Below, piece after piece: positions 30,203-58,931 of a stretch of 64,000 nucleotides of DNA (position 1 is its first letter; each line of letters opens with the position of its first letter). The notes beneath the pieces were generated by a model that saw only the letters and a program-made list of their open reading frames with translations, was not told where the DNA came from and did no database searches. Made by a program: the position numbers and the translations under genes. Origin of the DNA: Antedon mediterranea (taxonomy: Eukaryota > Animalia > Echinodermata); the NCBI RefSeq assembly GCF_964355755.1, contig NC_092671.1, positions 11,780,001 to 11,844,000 of the forward strand, in the 5' to 3' direction.

Positions 30203-30233
<31 letters not shown>

Positions 30234-30277
30234 GATCCTGACAATAACAAGGGGTTATCCGCCAAGTGCGGATAACC

Positions 30278-30279
<2 letters not shown>
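29051..30279 (-). mobile_element. Intact short-subfamily element with type B cap
   Basis: CTAGATTTG start; poly-A linker; cap GATCCTGACAATAACAAGGGGTTATCCGCCAAGTGCGGATAACCAA at 30234-30279. Confidence 0.82.
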
Positions 30280-30308
<29 letters not shown>

Positions 30309-30489
30309 TCCTGACAATAACAAGGGGTTATCCGCCAAGTGCGGATAACCAAAAAAAAAAATATTGATCCACTACAATCACAAGGAGTTATCCGCTACTA
30401 AGCGGATAACTAAAAAGTTGATGATGATGATGATGATGATTTCGTACAATCACAAGAGGTTATCCTGCAACTTCGTTGCGGATAACCAA
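30234..30489 (-). repeat. Stack of four 5' caps from three subfamilies (B, B, AGTT-type, A)
   Basis: Caps end at 30279, 30352, 30413 and 30489, separated by poly-A or (GAT)n linker halves. Confidence 0.9.
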
Positions 30490-33400: not shown

Positions 33401-36400
33401 TACGACAAAATCGTTAAATCACGCGTAAGTCACGTTGCGCAATTGTAAACGTCATTAGAAGCTTCGCTTGACGACGTTACGTAAATGTCAATATGTTAAG
33501 ATAGTTACCGAAATGTTATGTTTGCGAGTTTTAGAGAAAAGCGTTACACAAAAATCATACAGAATGATTTCGTACAATCACAAGAGGTTATCCTGCAACT
33601 TCGTTGCGGATAACCAACTAGATTTAACTAGACATGTAACTCGTCACTTTGACGAGTTTGGTTATCCGCCGCGCAAGTGGTGCAACATTAACATTAAGGG
33701 GATAGGTTGAGGACAAAAGGAAGTTTTCACGTCGGCATTATGACCTGAACTGAAGAATATGATATATTATTATTGCTGAATTTTATTATTTAAATTCATA
33801 TATAGTATACACAGTATAATCTGTATCCATATCACATACAGTGACATACATAGAATTGGTGAAATTACGGGACCCGCTATTTATTGCAATTTTTAACATG
33901 TTGACGGTTTTAAAATGAAACGCAAAGGTAGCAATTCCGAAAGGAAATTATCTCAGCAACAACGTATTAGCGTGTAGAAGAAATTTGAATACGTGAAATA
34001 TTGATGCGCGCTCGTTTAAATGTAATGAATTATGACGCAAGAAATGAAAATACGACCTTTTTTATTTAACTGGCCATATGATGACGTCACAACATCCGAT
34101 TGGCAACATTTTTACATAATTTCGTATCTACAGTCCAATAGCTTCCAGAAAAAGTTTTAATCGTGATTATCACATTTTATTCTTACGTGCTATAACAGAT
34201 TAAAATTTACTGTAAAGATGAAATTGATGCCACACGTGATTTAAATTTTTAGGCATGATGACGTCAAAAAAATTAAAATATTTTTAACTCATGCGAAAGA
34301 TAGTTAATTGACCTAAACAATATCAAAATCGGGGTGAAAATGGAAAACGAATAAGTGGAGATGCGCTCTATTCAATGTGTAGAGCTATGACGAAAGATAC
34401 AAAAATCCTAAATTTTATATTCGCGTGGCCATACGATGACGTCACAATGTCCGGTTAGCCATATTAATACCTGATCCGATATCTACAACTCATCTACTTC
34501 CAGAATATGCCATCCACAAAAAGTTGACCGTCTAGTTTAGAAATTACGACTGTTTAAAAAAAGGCATATTTTAAACGAATTTTTTAACCTTTTCATAAAA
34601 AACGCGCGCAAATTGTCCAATTCGACGTGCTCGTATGACGTATCTTTAAGTCGAAATTGTTAAAAATTTGGTAAAATTACATGAAAAGGCTGGAAAAACA
34701 TAAATCGCGCGAAAAAAACACGTTTTCAATGCTACGTGCGCACCGCACACGTAAAAATGTGCGCACGCGTGGGAATTTTTGACATGCTTAAAACGACATG
34801 AAACGCATAGAAAGTTGATTATAAATTAGTTTCGCGCATTTTGAAATTTTAAATGCGCGTGCGCGCGTAACTTTGTTTAAAACACGCAATTTTTTTTCAA
34901 CAGAAAGTTAGCGCATGATATAAATTAAACTTTTGCAAAGTTTCACTTTAAAATGTTATTTGGTTTTCGACATATGTTAAATACGAGAAAATCGTTAAAT
35001 TGCGCGATTGTAAACATCATGAAAAGCTTCGCTTGACGACGTTACATAAATGTCAAAATGTTAACATAGTTAACAAAATGTTATGTTTGCAAGTTTTAGA
35101 GAAAAGCGTTACACAAAAATCATACAGAAAGAAAGAAGATTAAGAAAAAGACTAGACATGTAACTCGTCACTTTGACGAGTTTGGTTATCCGCCGCGCAA
35201 GTGGTGCAACATTAACATTAAGGGGATAGGTTGAGGACAAAGGGAAGTGTTCACGTTGGCATTATGACCTGAACTGAAGAGTATGATATGTTGTTATTGC
35301 TGAACTTTATTATTTAAATTCATATATAGTATACACAGTATAATCTGTATCCATATCACATACAGTGTAGAATAGGTGAAATTACGGGACCCGCTATTTA
35401 TTGCAATTTTTAACATGTTGACGGTTTTAAAATGAAACGCGAAGGTAGCAATTGCGAAAGAAAATTATCTCAGCAACAACGTATTAACGTGTAGAAGAAA
35501 TTTGAATACGTGAAATATTGATGCGCGCTCTTTTAAATGTAATGAATTATGACGCAAAAGATGAAAATACGACCTTTTTTATTTAACTGGCCATATGATG
35601 ACGTCACAACATCCGATTGGCAACATTTTTACATAATTTCGTATCTACAATCCAATAGCTTCCAGAAAAAGTTTTAATCGTGATTATCACATTTTATTCT
35701 TACGAGCTATAACAGATTAAAATTTACTGTAAAGATGAAATTGATGCCACACGTGATTTAAATTTTTAGGCATGACGACGTCAAAAAAATAAAAATATTT
35801 TTAACTCATGCGAAAGATAGTTGATTGACCTAGACAATATCAAAATCAGGGTGAAAATGGAAAACGGATAAGTGGAGATGCGCTCTATTCAATGTGATGA
35901 GCTATGACGAAAGATACAAAAATCCTAAATTTTATATTCGCGTGGCCATACGATGACGTCACAATGTCCGGTTAGCCATATTAATACCTGATCCGACATC
36001 TACAACTCATCTACTTCCAGAATATGTCATCCACAAAAAGTTGACCGTCTAGTTTAGAAATTACGACTGTTTAAAAAAAGGCATATTTTAAACGAATTGT
36101 TTAACCTTTTCATAAAAAACGCGCGCAAATTGTCCAATTCGACGTGCTCGTATGACGTATCTTTAAGTCGAAATTGTTTAAAATTTGGTAAAATTACTAG
36201 AAAAGGCTGGAAAAACATAAATTACGCGAAAAAAATACGTTTTCAATGCTACGTGCGCACCGCACACGTAAAAATGTGCGCACGCGTGGGAATTTTTGAC
36301 ATGCTTAAAACGACATGAAACGCGTAGAAAGTTGATTATAAATTAATTTTGCGCAATTTGAAATTTTAAATGCGCGTGCGCGCGTAACTTTGTGTAAAAC

Positions 36401-39400
36401 ACGCAATTTTTTTTCAACAGAAAGTTAGCGCATGATATAAATTAAACTTTAGCAAAGTTTCACTTTAAAATGTTATTTGGTTTTCGACATATGTTAAATA
36501 CGAGAAAATCGTTAAATCGCGCGTACGTCACGTTGCGCAATTGTAAACGTCATGAAAAGCTTCGCATGACGACGTTACGTAAATGTCAAAATGTTAACAT
36601 AGTTAACGAAATGTTATGTTTACGAGTTTCAGAGAAAAGCGTTACACAAAAATCATACAGAAAGAAAGAAGAACTAGACATGTAACTCGTCACTTTGACG
36701 AGTTTGGTTATCCGCCGCGCAAGTGGTGCAACATTAACATTAAGGGGATAGGTTGAGGACAAAAGGAAGTGTTCACGTTGGCATTATGATCTGAACTGAA
36801 GAATATGATATGTTGTTATTGCTGAATTTTATTATTTAAATTCATATATAGTATACACAGTATATTCTGTATCCATATCACATACAGTGACATACAGTGT
36901 AGAATAGGTGAAATTACGGGACCTGCTATTTATTGCAATTTTTAACATGTTGACGGTTTTAAAATAAAACGCGAAGGTAGCAATTCCGAAAGGAAATTAT
37001 CTCAGCAACAACGTATTAGCGTGTAGAAGAAATTTGAATACGTGAAATATTGATGCGCGCTCTTTTAAATGTAATGAATTATGACGCAAAAGATGAAAAT
37101 ACGACCTTTTTCATTTAACTGGCCATATGATGACGTCACAACATCCGATTGGCAACATTTTTACATAATTTCGTATCTACAATCCAATAGCTTCCAGAAA
37201 AAGTTTAATCGTGATTATCACATTTTATTCTTACGAGCTATAACAGATTAAAATTTACTGTAAAGATGAAATTGATGCCACACGTGATTTAAATTTTTAG
37301 GCATGATGACGTCAAAAAAATTAAAATATTTTTAACTCATGCGAAAGATAGTTGATTGACCTAGACAATATCAAAATCAGGGTGAAAATAGAAAACGAAT
37401 AGGTGGAGATGCGCTCTATTCAATGTGATGAGTTATGACGAAAGATACAAAAATCCTAAATTTTATATTCGCGTGGCCATACGATGACGTCACAATGTCC
37501 GGTTAGCCATATTAATACCTGATCCGATATCTACAACTCATCTACTTCCAGAATATGTCATCCACAAAAAGTTGACCGTCTAGTTTAGAAATTACGACTG
37601 TTTAAAAAAAGGCATATTTTAAACGAATTTTTTAACCTTTTCATAAAAAACGCGCGCAAATTGCCCAATTCGACGTGCTCGTATGACGTATCTTTAAGTC
37701 GAAATTGTTTAAAATTTGGTAAAATTGCTAGAAAAGGCTGGAAAAACATAAATCACGCGAAAAAAATACGTTTTCAATGCTACGTGCGCACCGCACACGT
37801 AAAAATGTGCGCACGCGTGGGAATTTTTGACATGCTTAAAACGACATAAAACGCGTAGAAAGTTGATTATAAATTAATTTTGCGCATTTTGAAATTTTAA
37901 ATATGCGTGCGCGCGTAACTTTGTGTAAAACACGCAATTTTTTTTCAACAGAAAGTTAGCGCATGATATAAATTAAACTTTTGCAAAGTTTCACTTTAAA
38001 ATGTTATTTGGTTTTCGACATATGTTAGATACGAGAAAATCGTTAAATCGCGCGTACGTCACGTTGCGCAATTGTAAACATCATGAAAAGCTTCGCTTGA
38101 CGACGTTACATAAATGTCAAAATGTTAACATAGTTACCGAAATGTTATGTTTGCGAATTTTAGAGAAAAGCGTTACACAAAAATCATACAGAAAGAAAGA
38201 AGAAGAACTAGACATGTAACTCGTCACTTTGACGAGTTTGGTTATCCGCCGCGCAAGTGGTGCAACATTAACATTAAGGGGATAGGTTGAGGACAAAAGG
38301 AAGTGTTCACGTTGGCATTATGACCTGAACTGAAGAATATGATATGTTGTTATTGCGGAAATTTATTGTTTAAATTCATATATACTGTAGTATACACAGT
38401 ATAATCTGTATCCATATCACATACAGTGTAGAATAGGTGAAATTACGGGACCCGCTATTTATTGCAATTTTTAACATGTTGACGGTTTTAAAATGAAACG
38501 CGAAGGTAGCAATTCCGAAAGGAAATTATCTCAGCAACAACGTATTAGCGTGTAGAAGAAATTTGAATACGTGAAATATTGATGCGCGCTCTTTTAAATG
38601 TAATGAATTATGACGCAAAAGATGAAAATACGACCTTTTTCATTTAACTGGCCATATGATGACGTCACAACATCCAATTGGCAACATTTTTACATAATTT
38701 CGTATCTACAATCCAATAGCTTCCAGAAAAAGTTTTAATCGTGATTATCACATTTTATTCTTACGAGCTATAACAGATTAAAATTTACTGTAAAGATGAA
38801 ATTACTGCCACACGTGATTTTAATTTTTAGGCATGATGACGTCAAAAAAATTAAAATATTTTTAACTCATGCGAAAGATAGTTGATTGACCTAGACAATG
38901 TCAAAATCGGGGTGAAAATTGAAAACGGATAAGTGGATATGCGCTCTATTCAATGTGATGAGCTATGACAAAAGATACAAAAATCCTAAATTTTATATTC
39001 GCGTGGCCATACGATGACGTCACAATGTCCGGTTAGCCATATTAATACCTGATCCGATATCTACAACTCATCTACTTCCAGAATATCCCATCCACAAAAA
39101 GTTGACCGTCTAGTTTAGAAATTACGACTGTTTAAAAAAAGGCATATTTTAAACGAATTTTTTAACCTTTTCATAAAAAACGCGCACAAATTGTCCAATT
39201 CGACGTACTCGTATGACGTATCTTTAAGTCGAAATTGTTTAAAATTTGGTAAAATTACTAGAAAAGGCTGGAAAAACATAAATCGCGAAAAAAATACGTT
39301 TTCAATGCTACGTGCGTACCGCACACGTAAAAATGTGCGCACGCGTGGGAATTTTTGACATACTTAAAACGACCAGAAACGCGTAGAAAGTTGATTATAA

Positions 39401-41286
39401 ATTAATTTTGCGCATTTTGAAGTTTTAAATGCGCGTGCGCGCGTAACTTTGTGTAAAACACGCAATTTTTTTTCAACATAAAGTTAGCGCATGATATAAA
39501 TTAAACTTTTGCGAAGTTTCAAGTTGAAATGTTATTTGGTTTTCAACATATGTTAAATACGAGAAAAACGTTAAATCGCGCGTACGTCACGTTGCGCAAT
39601 TGCAAACATCATGAAAAGCTTCGCTTGACGACGTTACGTAAATGTCAATATGTTAAGATAGTTACCGAAATGTTATGTTTGCGAGTTTTAGAGAAAAGCG
39701 TTACACAAAAATCATACAGAAAGAAAGAAGAACTAGACATGTAACTCGTCACTTTGACGAGTTTGGTTATCCGCCGCGCAAGTGGTGCAACATTAACATT
39801 AAGGGGATAGGTTGAGGACAAAAGGAAGTGTTCACGTTGGCATTATGACCTGAACTGAAGAATATGATATGTTGTTATTGCTGAATTTTATTGTTTAAAT
39901 TCATATATAGTATACACAGTATAATCTGTATCCATATCACATACAGTGTAGAATAGGTGAAATTACGGGACCCGCTATTTATTGCAATTTTTAACATGTT
40001 GACGGTTTTAAAATGAAACGGGAAGGTAGCAATTCCGAAAGGAAATTATCTCAGCAACAACGTATTAGCGTGTAGAAGAAATTTGAATACGTGAAATATT
40101 GATGCGCGCTCTTTTAAATGTAATGAATTATGACGCAAAAGATGGAAATACGACCTTTTTTATTTAACTGGCCATATGATGACGTCACAACATCCGATTG
40201 GCAACATTTTTACATAATTTCGTATCTACAATCCAATAGCTTCCAGAAAAAGTTTTAATCGTGATTATCACATTTTATTCTTACGAGCTATAACAGATTA
40301 AAATTTACTGTAAAGATGAAATTGATGCCACACGTGATTTAAATTTTTAGGCATGATGACGTCAAAAAAATTAAAATATTTTAACTCATGCGAAAGATAG
40401 TTGATTGACCTAGACAATATCAAAATCCGGGTGAAAATGGAAAACGGATAAGTGGAGATGCGCTCTATTCAATGTGATGAGCTATGACGAAAGATACAAA
40501 AATCCTAAATTTTATATTCGCGTGGCCATACGATGACGTCACAATGTCCGGTTAGCCATATTAATACCTGATCCGATATCTACAACTCATCTACTTCCAG
40601 AATATGCCATCCACAAAAATTTGACCGTCTAGTTTAGAAATTACGACTGTTTAAAAAAAGGCATATTTTAAACGAATTTGTTAACCTTTTCATAAAAAAC
40701 GCGCGCAAATTGTCCAATTCGACGTGCTCGTATGACGTATCTTTAAGTCGAAATTGTTTAAAATTTGGTAAAATTACATGAAAAGGCTGGAAAAACATAA
40801 ATCACTCGAAAAAAATACCTTTTCAATGCTACGTGCGCACCGCACACGTAAAAATGTGCGCACGCGTGGGAATTTTTGACATGCTTAAAACGACATGAAA
40901 CGCGTAGAAAGTTGATTATAAATTAGTTTCGCGCATTTTGAAATTTTAAATGCGCGTGCGCGCGTAACTTTGTGTAAAACACGCAATTTTTTTTCAACAG
41001 AAAGTTAGCGCATGATATAAATTAAACTTTTGCAAAGTTTCACTTTAAAATGTTATTTGGTTTTCGACATATGTTAAATACGAGAAAATCGTTAAATCGC
41101 GCGTACGTCACGTTGCGCAATTGTAAACATCATGAAAAGCTTCGCTTGACGACGTTACATAAATGTCAAAATGTTAACATAGTTAACAAAATGTTATGTT
41201 TGCAAGTTTCAGAGAAAAGCGTTACACAAAAATCATACAGAAAGAAAGAAGAAGAATAAAAAGTTGATGATGATGATGATGATGAT

Positions 41287-41543
41287 GATTTCGTACAATC
41301 ACAAGAGGTTATCCTGCAACTTCGTTGCGGATAACCAAAAATAAAAAGATGATGATTTCGTACAATCACAAGAGGTTATCCTGCAACTTCGTTGCGGATA
41401 ACCAATGATGATGATTTCGTACAATCACAAGAGGTTATCCTGCAACTTCGTTGCGGATAACCAATAAAAAGTTGATGATGATGATGATGATGATTTCGTA
41501 CAATCACAAGAGGTTATCCTGCAACTTCGTTGCGGATAACCAA
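41287..41543 (-). repeat. Stack of four type A 5' caps
   Basis: Caps end at 41338, 41405, 41464 and 41543, following four consecutive cap-less bodies (33628-39732) plus the adjacent body. Confidence 0.9.
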
Positions 41544-44500
41544 CTAGACATGTAACTCGTCACTTTGACGAGTTTGGTTATCCGCCGCGCAAGTGGTGCA
41601 ACATTAACATTAAAGGGATAGGTTGAGGACAAAAGGAAGTGTTCACGTTGGCATTATGACCTGAACTGAAGAATATGATATGTTGTTATTGCTGAATTTT
41701 ATTATTTAAATTCATATATAGTATACACAGTATAATCTGTATCCATATCACATACAGTGTAGACTAGGTGAAATTACGGGACCCGCTATTTATTGCAATT
41801 TTTAACATGTTGACGGTTTTAAAATGAAACGCGAAGTTAGCAATTCCGAAAGGAAATTATCTCAGCAACAACGTATTAGCGTGTAGAAGAAATTTGAATA
41901 CGTTAAATATTGATGCGCGCTCTTTTAAATGTAATGAATTATGACGCAAAAGATGAAAATACGACCTTTTTTATTTAACTGGCCATATGATGACGTCACA
42001 ACATCCGATTGGCAACATTTTTACATAATTTCGTATCTACAATCCAATAGCTTCCAGGAAGAGTTTTAATCGTGATTATCACATTTTATTCTTACGAGCT
42101 ATAACAGATTAAAATTTACTGTAAAGATGAAATTAATGCCACACGTGATTTAAATTTTTAGGCATGATGACGTCAAAAAAATTTAAATATTTTTAACTCA
42201 TGCGAAAGATAGTTGATTGACCTAGACAATATCAAAATCGGGGTGAAAATAGAAAACGGATAAGTGGAGATGCGCTCTATTCAATGTGATGAGCTATGAC
42301 GAAAGATACAAAAATCCTAAATTTTATATTCGCGTGGCCATACGATGACGTCACAATGTCCGGTTAGCCATATTAATACCTGATCCGATATCTACAACTC
42401 ATCTACTTCTAGAATATGTCATCCACAAAAAATTGACCGTCTAGTTTAGAAATTACGACTGTTTAAAAAAAGGCATATTTTAAACGAATTTTTTTAACCT
42501 TTTCATAAAAAACGCGCGCAAATTGTCCAATTCGACGTGCTCGTATGACGTATCTTTAAGTCGAAATTGTTTAAAATTTGGTAAAATTACTAGAAAAGGC
42601 TGGAAAAACATAAATCAAGCGAAAAAAATACGTTTTCAATGCTACGTGCGCACCGCACACGTAAAAATGTGCGCACGCGTGGGAATTTTTAACATGCTTA
42701 AAACGACATGAAACGCGTAGATAGTTGATTAGAAATTAATTTTGCGCATTTTGAAATTTTAAATGCGCGTGCGCGCGTAACTTTGTGTAAAACACGGACT
42801 TTTTTTTCAACAGAAAGTTAGCGCATGATATAAATTAAACTTTTGCAAAGTTTCAAGTTGAAATGTTATTTGGTTGTCGAGCTATGTTAAATACGACAAA
42901 ATCGTTAAATCGCGCGTAAGTCACGTTGCGCAATTGTAAACGTCATGAAAAGCTTCGCTTGACGACGTTACGTAAATGTCAATATGTTAAGATAGTTACC
43001 GAAATGTTATGTTTGCGAGTTTTAGAGAAAAGCGTTACACAAAAATCATACAGAATGATTTCGTACAATCACAAGAGGTTATCCTGCAACTTCGTTGCGG
43101 ATAACCAACTAGACATGTAACTCGTCACTTTGACGAGTTTGGTTATCCGCCGCGCAAGTGGTGCAACATTAACATTAAGGGGATAGGTTGAGGACAAAAG
43201 GAAGTGTTCACGTTGGCATTATGACCTGAACTGAAGAATATGATATGTTGTTATTGCTGAAATTTATTGTTTAAATTCATATATACTGTAGTATACACAG
43301 TATAATCTGTATCCATATCACATACAGTGTAGAATAGGTGAAATTACGGGACCCGCTATTTATTGCAATTTTTAACATGTTGACGGTTTTAAAATGAAAC
43401 GCGAAGGTAGCAATTCCGAAAGGAAATTATCTCAGCAACAACGTATTAGCATGTAGAAGAAATTTGAATACGTGAAATATTGATGCGCGCTCGTTTAAAT
43501 GTAATGAATTATGACGCAAAAGATGAAAATACGACCTTTTTTATTTAACTGGCCATATGATGACGTCACAACATCCGATTGGCAACATTTTTACATAATT
43601 TCGTATCTACAGTCCAATAGCTTCCAGAAAAAGTTTTAATCGTGATTATCACATTTTATTCTTACGAGCTATAACAGATTAAAATTTACTGTAAAGATGA
43701 AATTAATGCCACACGTGATTTAAATTTTTAAGCACGATGACGTAAAAAAAATTAAAATATTTTTAACTCATGCGAAAGATAGTTGATTGACCTAGACAAT
43801 ATCAAAATCGGGGTGAAAATGGAAAACGGATAAGTGGAGATGCGCTCTATTCAATGTGATGAGCTATGACGAAAGATACAAAATCCTAAATTTTATATTT
43901 GCGTGGCCATACGATGACATCACAATGTCCGGTTAGCCATATTAATACCTGATCCAATATCTACAACTCATCTACTTCCAGAAAATGCCATCCACAAAAA
44001 GTTGACCGTTTAGTTTAGAAATTACGACTGTTTTAAAAAAGGCATATTTTAAACGAATTTTTTAACGTTTTCATAAAAAACGCGCGCAAATTGTCCAATT
44101 CGACGTGCTCGTATGACGTATCTTTAAGTCAAAATTGTTTAAAATTTGGTAAAATTACTAGAAAAGGCTGGAAAAACATAAATCACGCGAAAAAAATACG
44201 TTTTCAATGCTACGTGCGCTCCGCACACGTAAAAATGTGCGCATGCGTGGGAATTTTTGACATGCTTAAACCGACATGAAACGCGTAGAAAGTTGATTAG
44301 AAATTAATTTTGCGCATTTTGAAATTTTAAATGCGCGTGCGCGCGTAACTTTGTGTAAAACACGCAATTTTTTTTCAACAGAAGGTTAGCGCATGATATA
44401 AATTAAACTTTTGCAAAGTTTCACTTTAAAATGTTATTTGGTTTTCGACATATGTTAAATACGAGAAAATCGTTAAATCGCGCGTACGTCACGTTGCGCG

Positions 44501-47500
44501 ATTGTAAACATCATGAAAAGCTTCGCTTGACGACGTTACATAAATGTCAAAATGTTAACATAGTTAACAAAATGTTATGTTTGCAAGTTTTAGAGAAAAG
44601 CGTTACACAAAAATCATACAGAAAGAAAGAAGATTAAGAAAAAGATGACTAGACATGTAACTCGTCACTTTGACGAGTTTGGTTATCCGCCGCGCAAGTG
44701 GTGCAACATTAACATTAAGGGGATAGGTTGAGGACAAAAGGAAGTGTTCACGTTGGCATTATGACCTGAACTGAAGAATATGATATGTTGTTATTGCTGA
44801 ATTTTATTATTTAAATTCATATATAGTATACACAGTATAATCTGTATCCATATCACATACAGTGACATACAGTGTAGAATAGGTGAAATTACGGGACCCG
44901 CTATTTATTGCAATTTTTAACATGTTGACGGTTTTAAAATGAAACGCGAAGGTAGCAATTCCGAAAGGAAATTATCTCAGCAACAACGTATTAGCGTGTA
45001 GAAGAAATTTGAATACGTGAAATATTGATGCGCGCTCTTTTAAATGTAATGAATTATGACGCAAAAGATGAAAATACGACCTTTTTTATTTAACTGGCCA
45101 TATGATGACGTCACAATATCCGATTGGCAACATTTTTACATAATATCGTATCTACAATCCAATAGCTTTCAGAAAAAGTTTTAATCGTGATTATCACATT
45201 TTATTCTTACGAGCTATAACAGATTAAAATTTACTGTAAAGATGAAATTGATGCCACACGTGATTTAAATTTTTAGGCATGATGACGTCAAAAAAATTTA
45301 AATATTTTTATCTCATGCGAAAGATAGTTGATTGACCTAGACAATATCAAAATCGGGGTAAAAATGGAAAACGAATAAGTGGAGATGCGCTCTATTCAAT
45401 GTGATGAGCTATGACGAAAGATACAAAAATCCTAAATTTCATATTCGCGTGGCCATACGATGACGTCACAATGTCCGGTTAGCCATATTAATACCTGATC
45501 CGATATCTACAACTCATCTACTTCCAGAATATGTCATCCACAAAAAGTTGACCGTCTACTTTAGAAATTACGACTGTTTTAAAAAATGCATATTTTAAAC
45601 GAATTTGTTAACCTTTTCATAAAAAACGCGCGCAAATTGTCCAATTCGACGTGCTCGTATGACGTATCTTAAAGTCGAAATTGTTTAAAATTTGGTAAAA
45701 TTACTAGAAAAGGCTGGAAAAACATAAATCACGCGAAAAAAATACGTTTTCAATGCTACGTGCGCACCGCACACGTAAAAATGTGCGCACGCGTGGGAAT
45801 TTTTTACATGCTTAAAACGACATGAAACGCGTAGAAAGTTGATTATAAATTAATTTTGCGCATTTTGAAATTTTAAATGCGCGTGCGCGCGTAACTTTGT
45901 GTAAAACACGCAATTTTTTTTCAACAGAAATTTAGCGCATGATATAAATTAAACTTTTGCAAAGTTTCACTTTAAAATGTTATTTGGTTTTTGACATATG
46001 TTAAATACGAGAAAATCGTTAAATCGCGCGTACGTCACGTTGCGCAATTGTAAACATCATGAAAAGCTTCGCCTGACGACGTTACATAAATGTCAAAATG
46101 TTAACATAGTTAACAAAATGTTATGTTTGCAAGTTTTAGAGAAAAGCGTTACACAAAAATCATACAGAAAGAAAGAAGATTAAGAAAAAGATGATGATGA
46201 TTTCGTACAATCACAAGAGGTTATCCTGCAACTTCGTTGCGGATAACCAATGATGATTTCGTACAATCACAAGAGGTTATCCTGCAACTTCGTTGCGGAT
46301 AACCAACTAGACATGTAACTCGTCACTTTGACGAGTTTGGTTATCCGCCGCGCAAGTGGTGCAACATTAACATTAAGGGGATAGGTTGAGGACAAAAGGA
46401 AGTGTTCACGTTGGCATTATGACCTGAACTGAAGAATATGATCTGTTGTTATTGCTGAATTTTATTATTTAAATTCATATATAGTATACACAGTATAATC
46501 TGTATCCATATCACATACAGTGTAGAATAGGTGAAATTACGGGACCCGCTATTTATTGCAATTTTTAACATGTTGATGGTTTTAAAATGAAACGCGAAGT
46601 TAGCAATTCCGAAAGCAAATTATCTCAGCAACAACGTATTAGCATGTAGAAGAAATTTGAATACGTGAAATATTGATGCGCGCTCGTTTAAATGTAATGA
46701 ATTATGACGCAAAAGATGAAAATACGACCTTTTTTATATAACTGGCCATATGATGACGTCACAACATCCGATTGGCAACATTTTTACATAATTTCGTATC
46801 TAAAATTCAATAGCTTCCAGAAAAAGTTTTAATCGTGATTATCACATTTTATTCTTACGAGCTATAACAGATTAAAATTTACTGTAAAGATGAAATTAAT
46901 GCCACACGTGATTTAAATTTTTAGGCATGATGACGTCAAAAAAATTAAAATATTTTTAACTCATGCGAAAGATAGTTGATTGACCTAGACAATATCAAAA
47001 TCGGGGTGAAAATGGAAAACGAATAAGTGGAGAGGCGCTCTATTCAATGTGATGACCTATGACGAAAGATACAAAAATCCTAAATTTTATATTCGTGTGG
47101 CCATACGATGACGTCACAATGTCCGGTTAGCCATATTAATACCTGATCCGATATCTACAACTCATCAACTTCCAGAATATGTCATCCACAAAAAGTTGAC
47201 CGTGTAGTTTAGAAATTACGACTGTTTAAAAAAAGGCATATTTTTAACGGAATTTTGAACTTTTTCATCAAAAACACGCGCAAATTGTCCAATTCGACGT
47301 GCTCGTATGACGTAACTTTAAGTCGAAATTGTTTAAAATTTGATAAAATTACTAGAAAAGGCTGGAAAAACATAAATCACGCGAAAAAAATATGTTTTCA
47401 ATGCTACGTGCGCACCGCACACGTAAAAATTTGCGCACGCGTGGGAATTTTTTACATGCTTAAAACGACATGAAACGCGTAGAAAGTTGATTAGAAATTA

Positions 47501-50500
47501 ATTTTGCGCATTTTGAAATTTTAAATGCGCGTGCGCGCGTAACTTTGTGTAAAACACGCAATTTTTTTTCAACATAAAGTTAGCGCATGATATAAATTAA
47601 ACTTTTGGAAAGTTTCAATTTGAAATGTTATTTGGTTTTCGACCTATGTTAAATACGAGGAAATCGTTAAATCACGCGTAAGTCACGTTGCGCAATTGTA
47701 AACGTCATGAAAAGCTTCGCAGCACATCTTCATGTGCATGACGATATGTTGAGAAAGTTACAAAATGTTATGTTTACAAGTTTTAGAGAAAAGCGTTCCA
47801 CAAAAATCATACAGAAAGAAAGAAGATCAAGACTAGACATGTAACTCGTCACTTTGACGAGTTTGGTTATCCGCCGCGCAAGTGGTGCAACATTAACATT
47901 AAGGGGATAGGTTGAGGACAAAAGGAAGTGTTCACGTTGGCATTATGACCTGAACTGAACAATATGATATGTTGTTATTGCGGAATTTTATTATTTAAAT
48001 TCATATATAGTATATACACAGTATAATCTGTATCCATATCACATACAGTGTAGAATAGGTGAAATTACGGGACCCGCTATTTATTGCAATTTTTAACATG
48101 TTGATGGTTTTAAAATGAAACGCGAAGGTAGCAATTCCGAAAGGAAATTATCTCAGCAACAACGTATTAGCGTGTAGAAGAAATTTGAATACGTGAAATA
48201 TTGATGCGCCCTCTTTTAAATGTAATGAATTATGACGCAAAAGATGAAAATACGACCTTTTTTATTTAACTGGCCATATGATGACGTCACAACATCCGAT
48301 TGGCAACATTTTTACATAATTTCGTATCTACAGTCCAATAGCTTCCAGAAAAAATTTTAATCGTGATTATCACATTTTATTCTTACGAGCTATAACAGAT
48401 TAAAATTTACTGTAAAGATGAAATTAATGCCACACGTGATTTAAATTTTTAGGCATGATGACGTCAAAAAAATTAAAATATTTTTAACTCATGCGAAAGA
48501 TACTTGATTGACCTAGACAAAATCAAAATCGGGGTGAAAATGGAAAACGGATAAGTGGAGATGCGCTCTATTCAATGTGATGAGCTATGACGAAAGATAC
48601 AAAAATCCTAAATTTTATATTCGCGTGGCCATACGATGACGTCACAATGTCCGGTTAGCCATATTAATACCTGATCCGATATCTACAACTCATCTACTTC
48701 CAGAATATGCCATCCACAAAAAGTTGACCGTCTAGTTTAGAAATTACGACTGTTTAAAAAAAGGCATATTTTAAACAAATTTTTTAACCTTTTCATAAAA
48801 AACGCGCGCAAATTGTCCAATTCGACCAGCTCGTATGAGGTATCTTTAAGTCGAAATTGTTTAAAATTTGGTAAAATTACTAGAAAAGGCTGGAAAAATA
48901 TAAATCACGCGAAAAAAGTACGTTTTCAATACTACGTGCGCACCGCACACGTAAAAATGTGCGCACGCGTGGGAATTTTTGACATGCTTAAAACGACATG
49001 AAACGCGTAGAAAGTTGATTATAAATTAATTTTGCGCATTTTGAAATTTTAAATGCGCGTGCGCGCGTAACTTTGTGTAAAACACGCAATTTTTTTTCAA
49101 CAGAAAGTTAGCGCATGATATAAATTAAACTTTTGCAAAGTTTCAAGTTGAAATGTTATTTGGTTGTCGAGCTATGTTAAATACGACAAAATCGTTAAAT
49201 CGCGCGTAAGTCACGTTGCGCAATTGTAAACGTCATGAAAAGCTTCGCTTGACGACGTTACGTAAATGTCAATATGTTAAGATAGTTACCGAAATGTTAT
49301 GTTTGCGAGTTTTAGAGAAAAGCGTTACACAAAAATCATACAGAATGATTTCGTACAATCACAAGAGGTTATCCTGCAACTTCGTTGCGGATAACCAAAA
49401 AAGACTAGACATGTAACTCGTCACTTTGACGAGTTTGGTTATCCGCCGCGCAAGTGGTGCAACATTAACATTAAGGGGATAGGTTGAGGACAAAAGGAAG
49501 TGTTCACGTTGGCATTATGATCTGAACTGAAGAATATGATATGTTGTTATTGCTGAATTTTATTATTTAAATTCATATATAGTATAAACAGTATATTCTG
49601 TATCCATATCACATACAGTGACATACAGTGTAGAATAGGTGAAATTACGGGACCTGCTATTTATTGCAATTTTTATCATGTTGACGGTTTTAAAATAAAA
49701 CGCGAAGGTAGCAATTCCGAAAGGAAATTATCTCAGCAACAACGTATTAGCGTGTAGAAGAAATTTGAATACGTGAAATATTGATGCGCGCTCTTTTAAA
49801 TGTAATGAATTATGACGCAAAAGATGAAAATACGACCTTTTTCATTTAACTGGCCATATGATGACGTCACAACATCCGATTGGCAACATTTTTACATAAT
49901 TTCGTATCTACAATCCAATAGCTTCCAGAAAAAGTTTTAATCGTGATTATCACATTTTATTCTTACGAGCTATAACAGATTAAAATTTACTGTAAAGATG
50001 AAATTGATGCCACACGTGATTTAAATTTTTAGGCATGATGACGTCAAAAAAATTAAAATATTTTTACCTCATGCGAAAGATAGTTGATTGACCTAGACAA
50101 TATCAAAATCAGGGTGAAAATGGAAAACGAATAGGTGGAGATGCGCTCTATTCAATGTGATGAGTTATGACGAAAGATACAAAAATCCTAAATTTTATAT
50201 TCGCGTGGCCATACGATGACGTCACAATGTCCGGTTAGCCATATTAATACCTGATCCGATATCTACAACTCATCTACTTCCAGAATATGTCATCCACAAA
50301 AAGTTGACCGTCTAGTTTAGAAATTACGACTGTTTAAAAAAAGGCATATTTTAAACGAATTTTTTAACCTTTTCATAAAAAACGCGCGCAAATTGTCCAA
50401 TTCGACGTGCTCGTATGACGTATCTTTAAGTCGAAATTGTTTAAAATTTGGTAAAATTGCTAGAAAAGGCTGGAAAAACATAAATCACGCGAAAAAAATA

Positions 50501-50939
50501 CGTTTTCAATGCTACGTGCGCACCGCACACGTAAAAATGTGCGCACGCGTGGGAATTTTTGACATGCTTAAAACGACATAAAACGCGTAGAAAGTTGATT
50601 ATAAATTAATTTTGCGCATTTTGAAATTTTAAATACGCGTGCGCGCGTAACTTTGTGTAAAACACGCAATTTTTTTTCAACAGAAAGTTAGCGCATGATA
50701 TAAATTAAACTTTTGCAAAGTTTCACTTTAAAATGTTATTTGGTTTTCGACATATGTTAGATACGAGAAAATCGTTAAATCGCGCGTACGTCACGTTGCG
50801 CAATTGTAAACATCATGAAAAGCTTCGCTTGACGACGTTACATAAATGTCAAAATGTTAACATAGTTACCGAAATGTTATGTTTGCGAGTTTTAGAGAAA
50901 AGCGTTACACAAAAATCATACAGAAAGAAAGAAGAAGAA

Positions 50940-52538
50940 CTAGACATGTAACTCGTCACTTTGACGAGTTAGTTATCCGCATGAGAAACGCCACGCACAC
51001 GTCATACGTTGAAATTTTGCGCACAAAAAAATATTATGGCATTATGACCTGAACTGAAGAATGTCATATGCTGTTAGTGCTGAATTCTGTCAATTTTGTG
51101 TCATATAGTATATACAGTATAAACAGTATAATCTGTATGCGTATTACATACAGTGTAGAATAGGTGAAATTACGGGACCCCCCATTTATTCCTATTTTTA
51201 ACATGGCGGCGGTATCAAAATGAAACACTAAGATAGCAATTTTGGAAGCAAATGATCTCATCAACAACATATTACCGTGTAGAAGAAATTTGAATACGTC
51301 AAATATAGATACGCGCTCTTTTAAATGTGATGAACTATGACGCAAATTATGAAAATACGACTTTTTATATTCAACTGGCCATATGATGACGTCACAACAT
51401 CTGATTGGCAAAATGTTCACATGAATTCGTATCTACAATCCAATAGCTTCCATAAAAAGTTTTGATCATGATTATCACTTTTTATTGTGACGAGCTATAA
51501 CAGATTGAAATTTACTGTAAAGATGAAAATAAGTGACCCACGTTATTTACATTTTTAGACATGATGGCGTCATAAAAATTAAAATATTTTTAACTCATGC
51601 GAAAGAAAGGTGATTGACCTAGACAATGTCAAAATCGGGGTGAAAATTGAAAACGGATAAGTAGAGATGCGCTCTATTAAATGTGATGAGCTATGACGAA
51701 AGATACAAAAATCCTATATTTTATATTCACGTGGCCATACGATGACGTCACAATGTCCGGTTAGCCATATTATTACATGATCCGATATCTACACCTCATC
51801 AACTTCAAGAATATGTCATCCACAAAAATTTGACCGTCCAGTTTAGAAATTACAACTGTTTAAAAAAAGGCATAATTTTGACAAATTTTAACGAATTTTT
51901 TAACTTTTTCACCAAAAACCCACGTAAATTATCCAATTCGACGCGCAAGTATGACGTAATTTTAAGTCAAAATCGTTTAAAAGTTGGTAAAATTACTACA
52001 AAAGGCTGGAAAAACATAAATCACGTGAAAAAAATTGTTTTCAACGCTACGTGCGCACGGCGCGCGTAACAAAATGCGCGTGCGTTGGAATTTTTTACCT
52101 GCTCAAAATGACATGAAACGCGTAGAAAGTGGATTAGAAATTGATTTTTCGCATTTTGAAATTTTAAACGCGCGTGCGCGCGTAACTTCGTGTAAAACAA
52201 GCCATTTTTTTTACACAGTCAGTTAGCGCAAGATATAACTTAAACTTTCGTTAAGTTTCAATTTAAATTGTTATATGGTTTTCGATGTATGTTAAATACG
52301 CGAAATTCGTTAAAACACGCGTAAGTCATGTTGTGCAATTCTGACGTCATTCAAAAATAGAAAAGCACAACTTCAGGTGAATACCCATATGTTGACAAAG
52401 TTATGAAATGTTAACTTTACACTTTTTTGAGATATGCTCTGCACAAAAATGACAGAAAGAAAGAATAATACAGAAAAAAAAAAAAGATGATGAAACAGGA
52501 CAGTTACAAGGAGTTATCCGCTGAGTGCGGATAACTAA
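50940..52538 (-). mobile_element. Intact divergent AGTT-subfamily element
   Basis: subTIR TTAGTTATCCGC; cap GATGAAACAGGACAGTTACAAGGAGTTATCCGCTGAGTGCGGATAACTAA. Confidence 0.82.
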
Positions 52539-55500
52539 CTAGACATGTAACTCGTCACTTTGACGAGTTTGGTTATCCGCCGCGCAAGTGGTGCAACATT
52601 AACATTAAGGGGATAGGTTGAGGACAAAAGGAAGTGTTCACGTTGGCATTATGACCTGAACTGAAGAATATGATCTGTTGTTATTGCTGAATTTTATTAT
52701 TTAAATTCATATATAGTATACACAGTATAATCTGTATCCATATCACATACAGTGTAGAATAGGTGAAATTACGGGACCCGCTATTTATTGCAATTTTTAA
52801 CATGTTGATGGTTTTAAAATGAAACGCGAAGTTAGCAATTCCGAAAGCAAATTATCTCAGCAACAACGTATTAGCGTGTAGAAGAAATTTGAATACGTTA
52901 AATATTGATGCGCGCTCTTTTAAATGTAATGAACTATGACGAAAAAGATGAAAATACGACCTTTTTTATTTAACTGGCCATATGATGACGTCACAACATC
53001 CGATTGGCAACATTTTTACATAATTCCATATCTACAATCCAATAGCTTCCAGAAAAAGTTTTAATCGTGATTATCACATTTTATTCTTACGAGCTATAAC
53101 AGATTAAAATTTACTGTAAACATGAAATTGATGCCACACGTGATTTAAATTTTTAGGCATGATGACGTCAAAAAAAATAAAATATTTTTAACTCATGCGA
53201 AAGATAGTTGATTGACCTAGACAATATCAAAATCGGGGTGAAAATGGAAAACGGATAAGTGGAGATGCGCTCTATTCAATGTGATGAGCTATGACGAAAG
53301 ATACAAAAATACTAAATTTTATATTCGCGTGGCCATACGATGACGTCACAATGTCCGGTTAGCCATATTAATACCTGATCCGATATCTACAACTCATCTA
53401 CTTCCAGAATATGTCATCCACAAAAATTTGACCGTCTAGTTTAGAAATTACGACTGTTTAAAAAAAGGCATATTTTAAACGAATTTTTTAACCTTTTCAT
53501 AAAAAACGCGCGCAAATTGTCCAATTCGACGTGCTCGTATGACGTATCTTTAAGTCGAAATTGTTTAAAATTTGGTAAAATTACTAGAAAAGGCTGGAAA
53601 AACATAAATCACGCGAAAAAAATACGTTTTCAATGCTACGTGCGCACCGCACACGTAGAAATGTGCGCACGCGTGGGAATTTTTGACATGCTTAAAACGA
53701 CATGAAACGCGTAGAAAGTTGATTATAAATTAATTTTGCGCATTTTGAAATTTTAAATGTGCGTGCGCGCGTAACTTTGTGTAAAACATGCAATTTTTTT
53801 TCAACAGAAATTTAGCGCATGATATAAATTAAACTTTTGCAAAGTTTCACTTTAAAATGTTATTTGGTTTTCGACATATGTTAAATACGATAAAATCGTT
53901 AAATCGCGCGTACGTCACGTTGCGCAATTGTAAACATCATGAAAAGCTTCGCTTGACGACGTTACATAAATGTCAAAATGTTAACATAGTTAACAAAATG
54001 TTATGTTTGCGAGTTTTACAGAAAAGCGTTACACAAAAATCATACAGAAAGAAAGAAGAAGAACTAGACATGTAACTCGTCACTTTGACGAGTTTGGTTA
54101 TCCGCCGCGCAAGTGGTGAAACATTAACATTAAGGGGATAGGTTGAGGACAAAAGGAAGTGTTCACGTTGGCATTATGACCTGAACTGAAGAATATGATA
54201 TGTTGTTATTGCTGAATTTTATTATTTAAATCCATATATAGTATACACAGTATAATCTGTATCCATATCACATACAGTGTAGAATAGGTGAAATTACGGG
54301 ACCCGCTATTTATTGCAATTTTTAACATGTTGACGGTTTTAAAATGAAACGCGAAGGTAGTAATTCCGAAAGCAAATTATCTCAGCAACAACGTATTAAC
54401 GTGTAGAAGAAATTTGAATACGTGAAATATTGATGCGCGCTCTTTTAAATGTAATGAATTATGACGCAAAAGATGAAAATACGACCTTTTTTATTTAACT
54501 GGCCATATGATGACGTCACAACATCCGATTGGCAACATTTTTACATAATTTCGTATCTACAATCCAATAGCTTCCAGAAAAAGTTTTATTCGTGATTATC
54601 ACATTTTATTCTTACGAGCTATAACAGATTAAAATTTACTGTAAAGATGAAATTACTGCCACACGTGATTTTAATTTTTAGGCATGATGACGTCAAAAAA
54701 ATTAAAATATTTTTAACTCATGCGAAAGATAGTTGATTGACCTAGACAATGTCAAAATCGGGGTGAAAATGGAAAACGGATAAGTGGAGATGCGCTCTAT
54801 TCAATGTGATGAGCTATGACGAAAGATACAAAAATCCTAAATTTTATATTCGCGTGGCCATACGATGTTGTCAAAATGTCCGGTTAGCCATATTAATACC
54901 TGATCCGATATCTACAACTCATCTACTTCCAGAATATCCCATCCACAAAAAGTTGACCTTCTAGTTTAGAAATTACGACTGTTTAAAAAAAGGCATATTT
55001 TAAACGAATTTTTTAACATTTTCATAAAAAACGCGCGCAAATTGTCCAATTCGACGTGCTCGTATGACGTATCTTTAAGTCGAAATTGTTTAAAATTTGG
55101 TAAAATTACTAGAAAAAGCTGGAAAAACATAAATCACGCGAAAAAAAATCGTTTTCCATGCTACGTGCGCACCGCACACGTAAAAATGTGCGCACGCGTG
55201 GGAATTTTTGACATGCTTAAAACGACATGAAACGCGTAGAAAGTTGATTATAAATTAATTTTGCGCATTTTGAAATTTTAAATGCGCGTGCGCGCGTAAC
55301 TTTGTGTAAAACACGCAATTTTTTTTCAACAGAAAGTTAGCGCATGATATAAATTAAACTTTTGCAAAGTTTCACTTTAAAATGTTATTTGGTTTTCGAC
55401 ATATGTTAAATACGAGAAAATCGTTAAATTGCGCGTACGTCACGTTGCGCAATTGTAAACATCATGAAAAGCTTCGCTTGACGACGTTACATAAATGTCA

Positions 55501-58500
55501 AAATGTTAACATAGGTAACAAAATGTTATGTTTTCAAGTTTTAGAGAAAAGCGTTACACAAAAATCATACAGAAAGAAAGAAGAAAAATAAAAAGTTGAT
55601 GTTGATGATTTCGTACAATCACAAGAGGTTATCCTGCAACTTCGTTGCGGATAACCAACTAGACATGTAACTCGTCACTTTGACGAGTTTGGTTATCCGC
55701 CGCGCAAGTGGTGCAACATTAACATTAAGGGGATAGGTTGAGGACAAAAGGAAGTGTTCACGTTGGCGTTATGACCTGAACTGAAGAATATGATCTGTTG
55801 TTATTGCTGAATTTTATTATTTAAATTCATATATAGTATACACAGTATAATCTGTATCCATATCACATACAGTGTAGAATAGGTGAAATTACGGGACCCG
55901 CTATTTATTGCAATTTTTAACATGTTGACGGTTTTAAAATGAAACGCAAAGTTAGCAATTCCGAAAGGAAATTATCTCAGCAACAACGTATTAGCGTGTA
56001 GAAGAAATTTGAATACGTTAAATATTGATGCGCGCTCTTTTAAATGTAATGAATTATGACGCAACAGATGAAAATACGACCTTTTTTATTTAACTGGCCA
56101 TATGATGACGTCACAACATCCGATTGGCAACATTTTTACATAATTTCGTATCTGCAATCCAATAGCTTCCAGAAAAAATTGTAATCGTGATTATCACATT
56201 TTATTCTTACGAGCTATAACAGATTAAAATTTACTGTAAAGATGAAATTGATGCCATACGTGATTTAAATTTTTAGGCATGATGACGTCAAAAAAATTAA
56301 AATATTTTTAACTCATGCGAAAGATAGTTGATTGACCTAGACAATATCAAAATCGGGATGAAAATGGAAAACGGATAAGTGGAGATGCGCTCTATTCAAT
56401 GTGATGAGCTATGACGAAAGATACAAAAATCCTAAATTTTATATTCGCGTGGCCATACGATGACGTCACAATGTCCGGTTAGCCATATTAATACCTGATC
56501 CGATATCTAAAACTCATCTACTTCCAGAATATGTCATCCACAAAAATTTGACCGTCTAGTTTAGAAATTACGACTGTTTAAAAAAAGGCATATTTTAAAC
56601 GAATTTTTTAACCTTTTCATAAAAAACGCGCGCAAATTGTCCAATTGGACGTGCTCGTATGACGTATCTTTAAGTCGAAATTGTTTAAAATTTGGTAAAA
56701 TTACTAGAAAAAGCTGGAAAAACATAAATCACGCGAAAAAAATACGTTTTCAATGCTACGTGCGCACCGCACACATAAAAATGTGCGCACGCGTGGGAAT
56801 TTTTTACATGCTTAAAACGACATGAAACGCGTAGAAAGTTGATTAGAAATTAATTTTGCGCATTTTGAAATTTTAAATGCGCGTGCGCGCGTAACTTTGT
56901 GTAAAACACGCAATTTTTTTTCAACAGACAGTTAGCGCATGATATAAATTAAACTTTTGAAAAGTTTCACTTTAAAATGTTATTTGGTTTTCGACATATG
57001 TTAAATACGAGAAAATCGTTAAATCGCGCGTACGTCGCGTTGCGCAATTGCAAACATCATGAAAAGCTTCGCTTGACGACGTTACGTGAATGTCAAAATG
57101 TTAACATAGTTAACAAAATGTTATGTTTGCAAGTTTTAGAGAAAAGCGTTACACAAAAATCATACAGAAAGAAAGAAGATGACAAAAAAGATGACTAGAC
57201 ATGTAACTCGTCACTTTGACGAGTTTGGTTATCCGCCGCGCAAGTGGTGCAACATTAACATTAAGGGGATAGGTTGAGGACAAAAGGAAGTGTTCACGTT
57301 GGCATTATGACCTGAACTGAAGAATATGATATGTTGTTATTGCTGAATTTTATTATTTAAATTCATATATAGTATACACAGTATAATCTGTATCCATATC
57401 ACATACAGTGACATACAGTGTAGAATAGGTGAAATTACGGGACCCGCTATTTATTGCAATTTTTAACATGTTGACGGTTTTTAAATGAAACGCGAAGGTA
57501 GCAATTCCGAAAGGAAATTATCTCAGCAACAACGTATTAGCGTGTAGAAGAAATTTTAATACGTGAAATATTGATGAGCGCTCTTTTAAATGTAATGAAT
57601 TATGACGCAAAAGATGAAAATACGACCTTTTTTATTTAACTGGCCATATGATGACGTCACAACATCCGATTGGCAACATTTTTACATAATTTCGTATCTA
57701 CAATCCAATAGCTTCCAGAAAAAGTTTTAATCGTGATTATCACATTTTATTCTTACGAGCTATAACAGATTAAAATCTACTGTAAAGATGAAATTGATGC
57801 CACACGTGATTTAGATTTTTAGGCATGATGACGTCAAAAAAATTAAAATATTTTTAACTCATGCGAAAGATAGTTGATTGACCTACACAATATCAAAATC
57901 GGGGTGAAAGTGGAAAACGAATAAGTGGAGATGCGCTCTATTCAATGTGATGAGCTATGACGAAAGATACAAAAATCCTAAATTTTATATTCGCGTGGCC
58001 ATACGATGACGTCACAATGTCCGGTTAGCCATATTAATACCTGATCCGATACCTACAACTCATCTACTTACAGAATATGTCATCCACAAAAAGTTGACCG
58101 TCTAGTTTAGAAATTACGACTGTTTAAAAAAAGGCATATTTTAAACGAATTTTTTAACCTTTTCATTAAAAACGCGCGCAAATTGTCCAATTCGACGTGC
58201 TCGTATGACGTATCTTTAAGTCGAAATTGTTTAAAATTTGGTAAAATTATTAGAAAAGGCTGGAAAAACATAAATCACGCGAAAAAAATACGTTTTCAAT
58301 GCTACGTGCGCACCGCACACGTAAAAATGTGCGCACGCGTGGGAATTTTTGACATGCTTAAAACGACATGAAACGCGTAGAAAGTTGATTATAAATTAAT
58401 TTTGCGCATTTTGAATATTTAAATGCGCGTGCGCGCGTAACTTTGTGTAAAACACGCAATTTTTTTTCAACAGAAAGTTAGCGCATGAAATAAATTAAAC

Positions 58501-58931
58501 TTTTGCAAAGTTTCACTTTAAAATGTTATTTGGTTTTCGACATATGTTAAATACGAGAAAATCGTTAAATCGCGCGTACGTCACGTTGCGCAATTGTAAA
58601 CATCATGAAAAGCTTCGCTTGACGACGTTACATAAATGTCAAAATGTTAACATAGTTAACAAAATGTTATGTTTGCAAGTTTTAGAGAAAAGCGTTACAC
58701 AAAAATCATACAGAAAGAAAGAAGATTAAGAAAAAGATGTTGATGATTTCGTACAATCACAAGAGGTTATCCTGCAACTTCGTTGCGGATAACCAATGAT
58801 GATTTCGTACAATCACAAGAGGTTATCCTGCAACTTCGTTGCGGATAACCAATAAAAAGTTGATGATGATGATGATGATGATTTCGTACAATCACAAGAG
58901 GTTATCCTGCAACTTCGTTGCGGATAACCAA

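What the first reader, a model, noticed from the sequence alone, without database searches (positions are those of the whole stretch)
43109..46306. Base-exact empty-site reconstruction defines the target: no duplication, A|T or A|A
Body 43109 ends AAAAAGATGA| and the second cap begins |TGATGATTTC (46251). Removing 44649-46250 restores AAAAAGATGATGATGATTTC, identical to intact linkers near 15531 and 46185. Similar rejoins occur at 13994/15597, 39732/41339 and 57194/58797. Every CTAG start is preceded by A on +, so the element's 3' end is always joined to a T, while the other side is A or T. This fits Helitron-type insertion without target duplication and makes (GAT)n and poly-A tracts dense target fields.
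Basis: seen in the sequence. Interest (0 to 1): 0.7.

Follow-up and report, generated by a model that had tools for sequence, protein, structure and literature searches.

The report
Helitron copies nesting inside each other
This is a 62-kb stack of about 40 copies of a gene-less element with rolling-circle transposon (Helitron2-type) ends; the copies sit inside one short stretch near the start of other copies, or exactly against their ends, likely because they jumped there without duplicating the target, so the array was probably built by repeated self-insertion.

Summary
The quoted junctions are real. Bases 1-62234 are a same-strand array of non-coding 1.2-1.6 kb elements with Helitron2/HINE ends: 5' TT, 12-bp subterminal inverted repeat, 5' hairpin; 3' repeat, hairpin, CTAG. 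Removing 44649-46250 restores an intact linker, but that cut lies in (GAT)n and is flanked by TGA/TGA, so alone it cannot exclude a 3-bp duplication. The real control is a twin pair (23233, 52539) cut 3 nt apart that rejoins to 1604 nt with 1 mismatch and no gap. All 41 CTAG ends follow A; after a cap come A (11), T (10) or another CTAG (18). No-duplication A^T/T^T insertion is textbook. The notable part is where: 18 of 18 split caps are cut 51-85 nt from the host's 5' end, the 1.5-kb body is never hit, cap type mirrors body type 17 of 17, and a variant lacking the tract is hit 0 of 6 times against 16 of 26. Transposase and genome-wide sites were not available.

The parts
43109..44648 (-). Host copy (type A), 3' part: CTAG end, 3' hairpin, 3' subterminal repeat, 1.5-kb non-coding body, left part of the linker
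44622..44648 (-). Left part of the host's pyrimidine-tract/(ATC)n linker, lying 3' of the insertion point on the element strand
44649..46250 (-). Complete 1602-nt type-A copy inserted 56 nt inside the host's 5' end (A^T on the element strand)
44649..44690 (-). 3' terminus of the insert: CTAG end, 9-bp hairpin (44659-44679), 12-nt 3' subterminal repeat (44679-44690) ending 30 nt from the end
46168..46199 (-). Intact linker of the insert (target tract); holds the only two purine runs of 10 nt or more on either strand of this copy
46219..46250 (-). 5' terminus of the insert: TT start, 12-nt 5' subterminal repeat (46239-46250) and 5' hairpin
46251..46306 (-). Displaced 56-nt 5' cap of the host; identical to the caps at 15597-15652 and 58797-58852
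43097..43120 (-). Head-to-tail join (cap end 43108, CTAG start 43109); another at 46306/46307; 18 in the window
23233..30489 (-). Four-level nest A(23233) > B(24761) > D(27898) > D(29051) with caps closing in mirror order; host is one of the twin pair
52539..58931 (-). Twin of 23233, cut 79 instead of 76 nt from its 5' end; both rejoin to 1604 nt, 1 mismatch, no gap
1..62234 (-). Whole array: 41 CTAG ends (39 by pattern, plus a deleted start at 6140 and a 10-nt stub at 33618 added by hand) and 39 caps of types A, B, C/D, all on one strand
62235..62289 (-). 55-nt cap of a further family with a different subterminal repeat and a perfect 13-bp hairpin; likely the outer host of the array's right end

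Best explanation
The window is an array of non-autonomous elements with Helitron2/HINE-type ends, nested inside one another, which likely grew by serial single-strand insertion 5' of a T without target duplication and was later reshuffled in places by recombination. Shown in the sequence: the end structures, the same orientation of all copies, the nesting, the confinement of cuts to 51-85 nt from the host's 5' end or to the exact terminus, and gain-free rejoining in the twin pair. Inferred: a RepHel transposase encoded elsewhere in the genome nicks donor and target 5' of a T (the element itself starts with T; HUH chemistry recalled, not tested), joins the target's 3'-OH to the element's 5' end and the element's CTAG 3'-OH to the target T. 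It would prefer a T followed by about 20 nt of pyrimidine-rich sequence, which the element carries just inside its own 5' hairpin, and it would also use the bonds it normally cuts at a resident copy's ends, giving head-to-tail joins between different families. Unequal exchange and deletions between the 98%-identical bodies would then explain the outer pairs that no longer rejoin.
For: End anatomy matches the Helitron2 definition in all 6 intact copies of types A, B, D examined: repeats 11-12 of 12 complementary, 29-30 nt from the 3' end, the B-type change present at both ends. Cap type equals body type in 17 of 17 orphan pairs, chance 7e-5. Innermost type-A pairs 5 of 5 within 1 edit, p 0.002. 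Twins 23233/52539. Body 21706 plus cap 60513 equals intact twin 60648 over the last 115 nt (pairing chosen by me, not by the stack). No A|G cut in 21 (p 0.0035; 16 distinct, p 0.014). 18 of 18 orphan caps 51-85 nt, plus the 55-nt cap of another family. Tract-less variant interrupted 0 of 6 against 16 of 26, Fisher p 0.018. None of the 15 head-to-tail pairs that could be compared is a twin pair (36-310 differences; twins have 12 or fewer), and 7 of the 17 typed joins link different types, the stub join being an eighth. Chimeric bodies 38208 and 46307 and deletions in 4040 and 6140. Linker-to-CTAG joints at several positions stand in contigs of two public runs from two studies, cap-to-linker joints in one of them.
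Against: 6 of 13 scorable stack pairs do not rejoin; only some sit next to a shown chimera or deletion, and 3 bodies stay unclosed. The best non-crossing matching reaches 11 pairs at 1 edit against 8.0 in shuffles (p 0.013) and 8 exact pairs against 6.1 (p 0.087). Copy 6140 rejoins with one A and one GAT more than its near twin 23233: slippage or a 1-nt gain. Three pairs of near-identical bodies share the same left junction (2512/46307, 36674/49405, 6140/23233), so junctions were also copied and the number of independent events is below the number of sites. No transposase is in the window and no genome was held.
Confidence: 0.8

Rival explanations
1. Few true insertions; most junctions are copies made by unequal crossing-over, gene conversion or segment duplication inside a satellite-like array, so the target rule rests on a handful of founder events.
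For: Chimeric bodies (38208: 9 differences from 18441 on the left, 1 from 4040 on the right; 46307: 0 from 52539 on the left, 3 from 2512 on the right). Shared left junctions in twins. The three 56-nt second caps are identical and all follow inserts of one linker variant. Single joint types have contig depths in the hundreds to thousands in public runs (depth is no copy number).
Against: 15 distinct left and 16 distinct right junction sequences; twins cut at different bonds; mirror order of types; the three hosts of the 56-nt caps differ by 46-58 and their inserts by 29-33 substitutions and carry different linkers.
Confidence: 0.12
2. Composite transposition: nicking at an outer 5' end and stopping at the first 3' end moves double-capped units (as proposed for Fusarium Helitrons), so second caps such as 46251-46306 travelled with the insert and the rejoin is a coincidence.
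For: Model published for FoHelis. Three identical second caps behind inserts of one variant. Surplus or mismatched caps at 41406 and 60572.
Against: All three left flanks end at a place that this cap completes (0, 0, 1 edits), which holds for 6 of 16 type-A left junctions (about 0.05 for three by chance); bodies, not caps, are in excess in the window.
Confidence: 0.05
3. The element starts with one T and makes a 1-nt T duplication, or adds a variable number of Ts as reported for HINEs; or the array is a rolling-circle concatemer.
For: Formally the same sequence: every 3' end abuts a T and the 5' end reads TT. Variable terminal Ts are reported for HINEs; one copy shows one extra A. Head-to-tail joins are usually read as concatemers.
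Against: A fixed TT at A^T and T^T sites alike needs no duplication, and single-strand transfer gives none. Concatemers of one circle cannot join different families or give mirror-ordered caps; plant concatemer arrays are described as having many 5' ends and one 3' end (second-hand), here the ends are nearly balanced.
Confidence: 0.03

Closest known systems
Helitron2 / HLE2 group (Bao and Jurka 2013, PMC3627910; HELIANO, PMC11417382)
   Same: 5' end T; 5' asymmetric inverted repeat at the very end forming a 5' hairpin; 3' repeat about 30 nt from the end directly before a hairpin; T^T insertion; no duplication.
   Different: Ends in CTAG and uses A^T about as often as T^T (10 and 11 of 21), features these papers give to canonical Helitron1. 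Membership by transposase tree could not be tested.
HINE / DINE-1 non-autonomous Helentrons (Thomas et al. 2014, PMC4067079; Cg_HINE, PMC7492417)
   Same: Non-coding; 11-13 bp subterminal repeats, inner inverted repeat near the 5' one, microsatellite behind it, 3' stem-loop; T-rich targets, no site modification. Types A-D share 11-12 bp of the repeat, one family by that paper's rule.
   Different: No central tandem repeats seen by self-comparison; terminal T number fixed in most scorable sites; the microsatellite/pyrimidine module is itself the insertion hot spot.
proto-Helentron of Phytophthora (PMC4067079)
   Same: 5' TT, 3' CTAG, A^T insertion, no duplication.
   Different: That is a 14-kb coding element whose inverted repeat and stem-loop are arranged differently (PMC11417382); no sequence relation was tested.
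Self-inserted FoHelis with several 5' termini (Chellapan et al. 2016, PMC5148889)
   Same: Insertion of a Helitron into the first 200 nt of another copy; stacked short 5' ends.
   Different: A few cases there; here about 40 copies of several types, at least four levels deep, with both ends retained.
Tandem Helitron arrays and TE tandems from site preference (Xiong 2016 and McGurk and Barbash 2018 as cited in PMC12628747; Hydractinia subtelomeric arrays, PMC11934779)
   Same: Long same-strand arrays of Helitron-derived units.
   Different: Those are read as rolling-circle concatemers of truncated units or local amplification; this array is nested and mixes families.

Membership tests
Helitron2/HLE2 (non-autonomous, HINE) | 5' asymmetric inverted repeat 0-2 nt from a 5' end that starts with T | tested here: met
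   12-nt repeat at position 1 in 6 of 6 intact copies examined (definition)
Helitron2/HLE2 (non-autonomous, HINE) | 5' hairpin formed with the 5' repeat | tested here: met
   Folded for type A, -11.7 kcal/mol, no shuffle control; inverted copy visible in B and D
Helitron2/HLE2 (non-autonomous, HINE) | 3' repeat 20-30 nt from the 3' end, directly upstream of a hairpin | tested here: met
   29-30 nt, 11-12 of 12 complementary; 9-bp hairpin
Helitron2/HLE2 (non-autonomous, HINE) | Insertion between T and T | tested here: inconclusive
   11 of 21 T^T, 10 of 21 A^T on the element strand; papers say 'generally' T^T
Helitron2/HLE2 (non-autonomous, HINE) | No target site duplication | tested here: met
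   Twin pair and non-repeat sites 13994/15597, 54063/58853 with no flanking repeat; 1-nt T duplication formally indistinguishable; 6 outer pairs unresolved
Helitron2/HLE2 (non-autonomous, HINE) | Autonomous partner with RepHel of the HLE2 clade sharing the ends | not testable with these tools
   No genome held; no long ORF in the window
Canonical Helitron1/HLE1 | 5' TC start | tested here: not met
   All caps start TT on the element strand
Canonical Helitron1/HLE1 | 3' hairpin and CTRR end | tested here: met
   CTAG 10 nt after the hairpin in type A
Canonical Helitron1/HLE1 | No terminal inverted repeats | tested here: not met
   12-nt asymmetric repeats present
Rolling-circle concatemer array | Adjacent units are copies of one circle | tested here: not met
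   0 of 15 comparable head-to-tail pairs are twins; 7 of 17 typed joins link different types

The most novel reading that the evidence does not exclude
A Helitron2 family that carries its own landing pad: a pyrimidine tract just inside the 5' hairpin, kept at the same place in several subfamilies, plus the resident termini themselves, draw new copies in, so long same-strand arrays grow by serial self-insertion rather than by rolling-circle concatemers; a common variant that deleted the tract escapes being interrupted. If the transposase bound at a resident end chooses the target, this would be terminus-directed targeting in a eukaryotic rolling-circle transposon.
Probability: 0.4. Interest if true: 0.7.

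Novelty: new variant of a known kind. Interest (0 to 1): 0.45.

Why it matters
The target rule as such (5' of a T, no duplication) is known. The array matters because head-to-tail Helitron junctions are cited as evidence of rolling-circle concatemers, and here such joins link different families and sit inside mirror-ordered nests, so they can arise by repeated insertion at one bond. It offers a natural test set for how Helitron2 transposases pick targets (sequence tract or tethering to resident ends), and a route from a dispersed transposon to satellite-like arrays.

Tried and rejected
Own genome: none held, so no dispersed empty sites and no search for the autonomous partner. Metagenome scan with a 21-nt 3'-end pattern: 10 loci, none with the hairpin and repeat, best match 22 nt; chance hits. 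Rfam: 0 matches in 43109-46306. ORFs: 2 of 100 aa or more in the window, longest stop-free stretch in copy 44649 62 aa. Reading the body end at 44648 as a canonical 5' TC end was rejected: body ends fall at many linker positions and the conserved hairpin end lies in the cap. Simple collinear duplication of the array was considered from twin positions and dropped, because twins sit at different nesting levels. Strict stack pairing is not adequate for outer levels; the first parse also used a provisional start at 6148, corrected to 6140 afterwards. A|T enrichment over A|A is significant on all 21 sites (p 0.003) but not on 16 distinct ones (p 0.066). Pure tethering could not be separated from sequence preference: the best rules fitted after the fact (17 purines in 20 nt; 23 in 29) leave 72-75% of candidate sites in the linker and none on the opposite strand. 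The public-run tables are cut to the best-supported rows and give only a consensus of loose ends, so no genome-wide target logo could be made. Earlier scan notes: nothing. Paper searches for the terminal motifs showed none in the 25 of 62 papers listed; searches for self-nesting arrays returned only the precedents cited; subscription papers such as Xiong 2016 and all supplements were not seen.
Full report
What the window is. Self-comparison shows that the first 62 kb consist of copies of one 1.2-1.6 kb unit, with no long reading frame. Each unit begins on + with CTAG and a 9-bp hairpin and ends with a short cap. Read on the minus strand, the cap is the 5' end: TT, a 12-nt repeat, and a hairpin formed with a copy of it; the other end carries the complementary repeat 29-30 nt from the end, the hairpin and CTAG. 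This is the Helitron2 layout of Bao and Jurka (passages read) and of HINE/DINE-1 (passages and one section), with a Helitron1-like CTAG end. There are 41 CTAG ends (39 by pattern, two added by hand) and 39 caps of types A, B and C/D; a reverse-strand search with the type-A patterns gave no CTAG end and one isolated loose cap match. Type-A copies differ by a median of 43 substitutions in 1.5 kb; 6 of 435 pairs differ by 12 or fewer.

The observation. The junction letters at 44648/44649 and 46250/46251 are as quoted, and the rejoined 20-mer stands unbroken at 15531, 19974 and 46185. All 41 CTAG starts follow an A. Caps are followed by CTAG (18), A (11) or T (10), never G, although G follows A in 24% of linker positions (p 0.0035, or 0.014 for 16 distinct flanks). 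On the element strand the target is therefore A^T or T^T.

How far 'base-exact' holds. The highlighted cut is in (GAT)n and the insert is flanked by TGA on both sides; repeat number varies between linker variants, so this site alone is weak, though the rejoined count equals that of the 5 intact copies of the same linker variant. Better evidence: bodies 23233 and 52539 differ by one base, are cut 76 and 79 nt from the 5' end, and both rejoin to 1604 nt with no gap; sites 13994/15597 and 54063/58853 have no flanking repeat at all. The five innermost type-A pairs are all within one edit of an intact linker (p 0.002). But of all 13 scorable stack pairs only 5 are exact and 7 within one edit; six outer pairs show apparent gains or losses of 2-11 edits, one of which mimics an 11-bp duplication. 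These look like mis-pairings after rearrangement: 4040 and 6140 carry internal deletions, the right part of 4040 is a twin of 38208 and points to cap 9209 rather than its stack partner, and 38208 and 46307 are chimeras. Not every mismatch is explained, three bodies stay unclosed, and 6140 has one A and one GAT more than its near twin. A 1-nt T duplication with a one-T start is formally the same sequence as a TT start without duplication.

That the copies are nested is firm: in 17 of 17 orphan pairs the cap type equals the body type (chance 7e-5), including caps D, D, B, A closing bodies A, B, D, D at 23233-30489, and a B cap closing a B body across 10.7 kb. Junctions of these kinds stand in contigs of public runs X12 and X16 (two studies; either may be the source sample), where 18,541 and 14,748 contigs lie on one copy; in X12, 17 contigs leave the cap into other A/T-rich sequence, which suggests dispersed copies. 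An assembly artefact is therefore unlikely for the junction types; their order in this window was not checked with long reads.

Where the copies land. All 18 orphan caps are 51-85 nt long, and the array's right end lies 55 nt inside the cap of a further family. All 20 body-side junctions lie in the 35-nt linker, none in the 1.5-kb body, which offers about 383 plus 338 A|A/T sites per copy. So dinucleotide density or short A runs do not explain it. A rule fitted afterwards, at least 17 purines in the 20 nt left of the cut, covers all 20 and leaves 72% of candidate sites in the linker and none on the opposite strand, so a preference for T followed by a pyrimidine tract could account for both place and orientation. 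In line with this, the variant that lacks the tract is interrupted in 0 of 6 copies against 16 of 26 (p 0.018), though it may simply be younger. The 18 head-to-tail joins are a second class: 7 of the 17 typed join different types (an eighth precedes a C/D-like stub) and none of 15 comparable pairs is a twin. Counting 6 distinct mixed joins against 2 short spacers, exact termini are favoured over nearby tract sites (p 0.004 under an assumed 1 in 4). Short homologies between types leave template switching as a lesser alternative.

Mechanism. Inferred: a RepHel acting in trans transfers one strand; donor and target are both cut 5' of a T, which explains the invariant T at the 3' join and the lack of duplication (no-duplication logic; the tyrosine chemistry is recalled). 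The tract gives the internal sites; the resident's own cutting sites, its first T or the CTAG^T bond, would give head-to-tail joins. Which of the two, and whether binding to resident ends directs the choice, cannot be told from this window.

Comparison and novelty. No-duplication A^T and T^T insertion, T-rich targets and single cases of self-insertion near the 5' end are in print. Tandems made by site preference and concatemer arrays are reviewed in PMC12628747 (passages, second-hand for the primary papers). Passages of PMC13085455, PMC6581046, PMC13286980, PMC4224331, PMC2773423, PMC7492417 and the abstract and passages of PMC11934779 gave no nested array of this kind, nor did the listings of the ten searches; subscription papers and supplements were not seen. 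Verdict: the finding's own claim is largely right and ordinary; the self-targeted, multi-family nested array behind it is a new variant of a known kind. Interest 0.45.

Noticed in passing
window 62235-62289: Cap of a further family with the same layout but a different subterminal repeat and a perfect 13-bp hairpin; its body is not in the window.
   Followed up: partly
window 33618-33627: 10-nt stub that starts like a type C/D 3' end and ends in AA before the next CTAG; probably the scar of a large deletion.
   Followed up: partly
window 770, 9067, 31992, 33556, 43047, 49337: Type-A variant with the linker tract deleted; it shares a block of substitutions in the neighbouring 300 nt, and its joint is the deepest one listed for run X12.
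   Followed up: yes
run X1, record 1: A single 1594-nt contig runs cap into CTAG head to tail around one tract-less unit at depth 7: a collapsed tandem at low coverage or a circle; not resolved.
   Followed up: no
window 2512-4039, 46307-47832, 10938-12458: Two type-A twins share a block of substitutions at unit positions about 1420-1460 with type-B copy 10938: exchange between types.
   Followed up: partly
window 21706-23232 with 60513-60571: Body and cap 37 kb apart complete each other to match intact twin 60648; if right, most of the window is nested in this one copy.
   Followed up: partly
window 62880-63420: Degenerate direct repeat of about 250-280 nt in the non-array tail; no similarity to the array.
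   Followed up: no
runs X12, X16, X3, X1: The family is held by runs under several coded organism labels, so it may be shared between related species.
   Followed up: no
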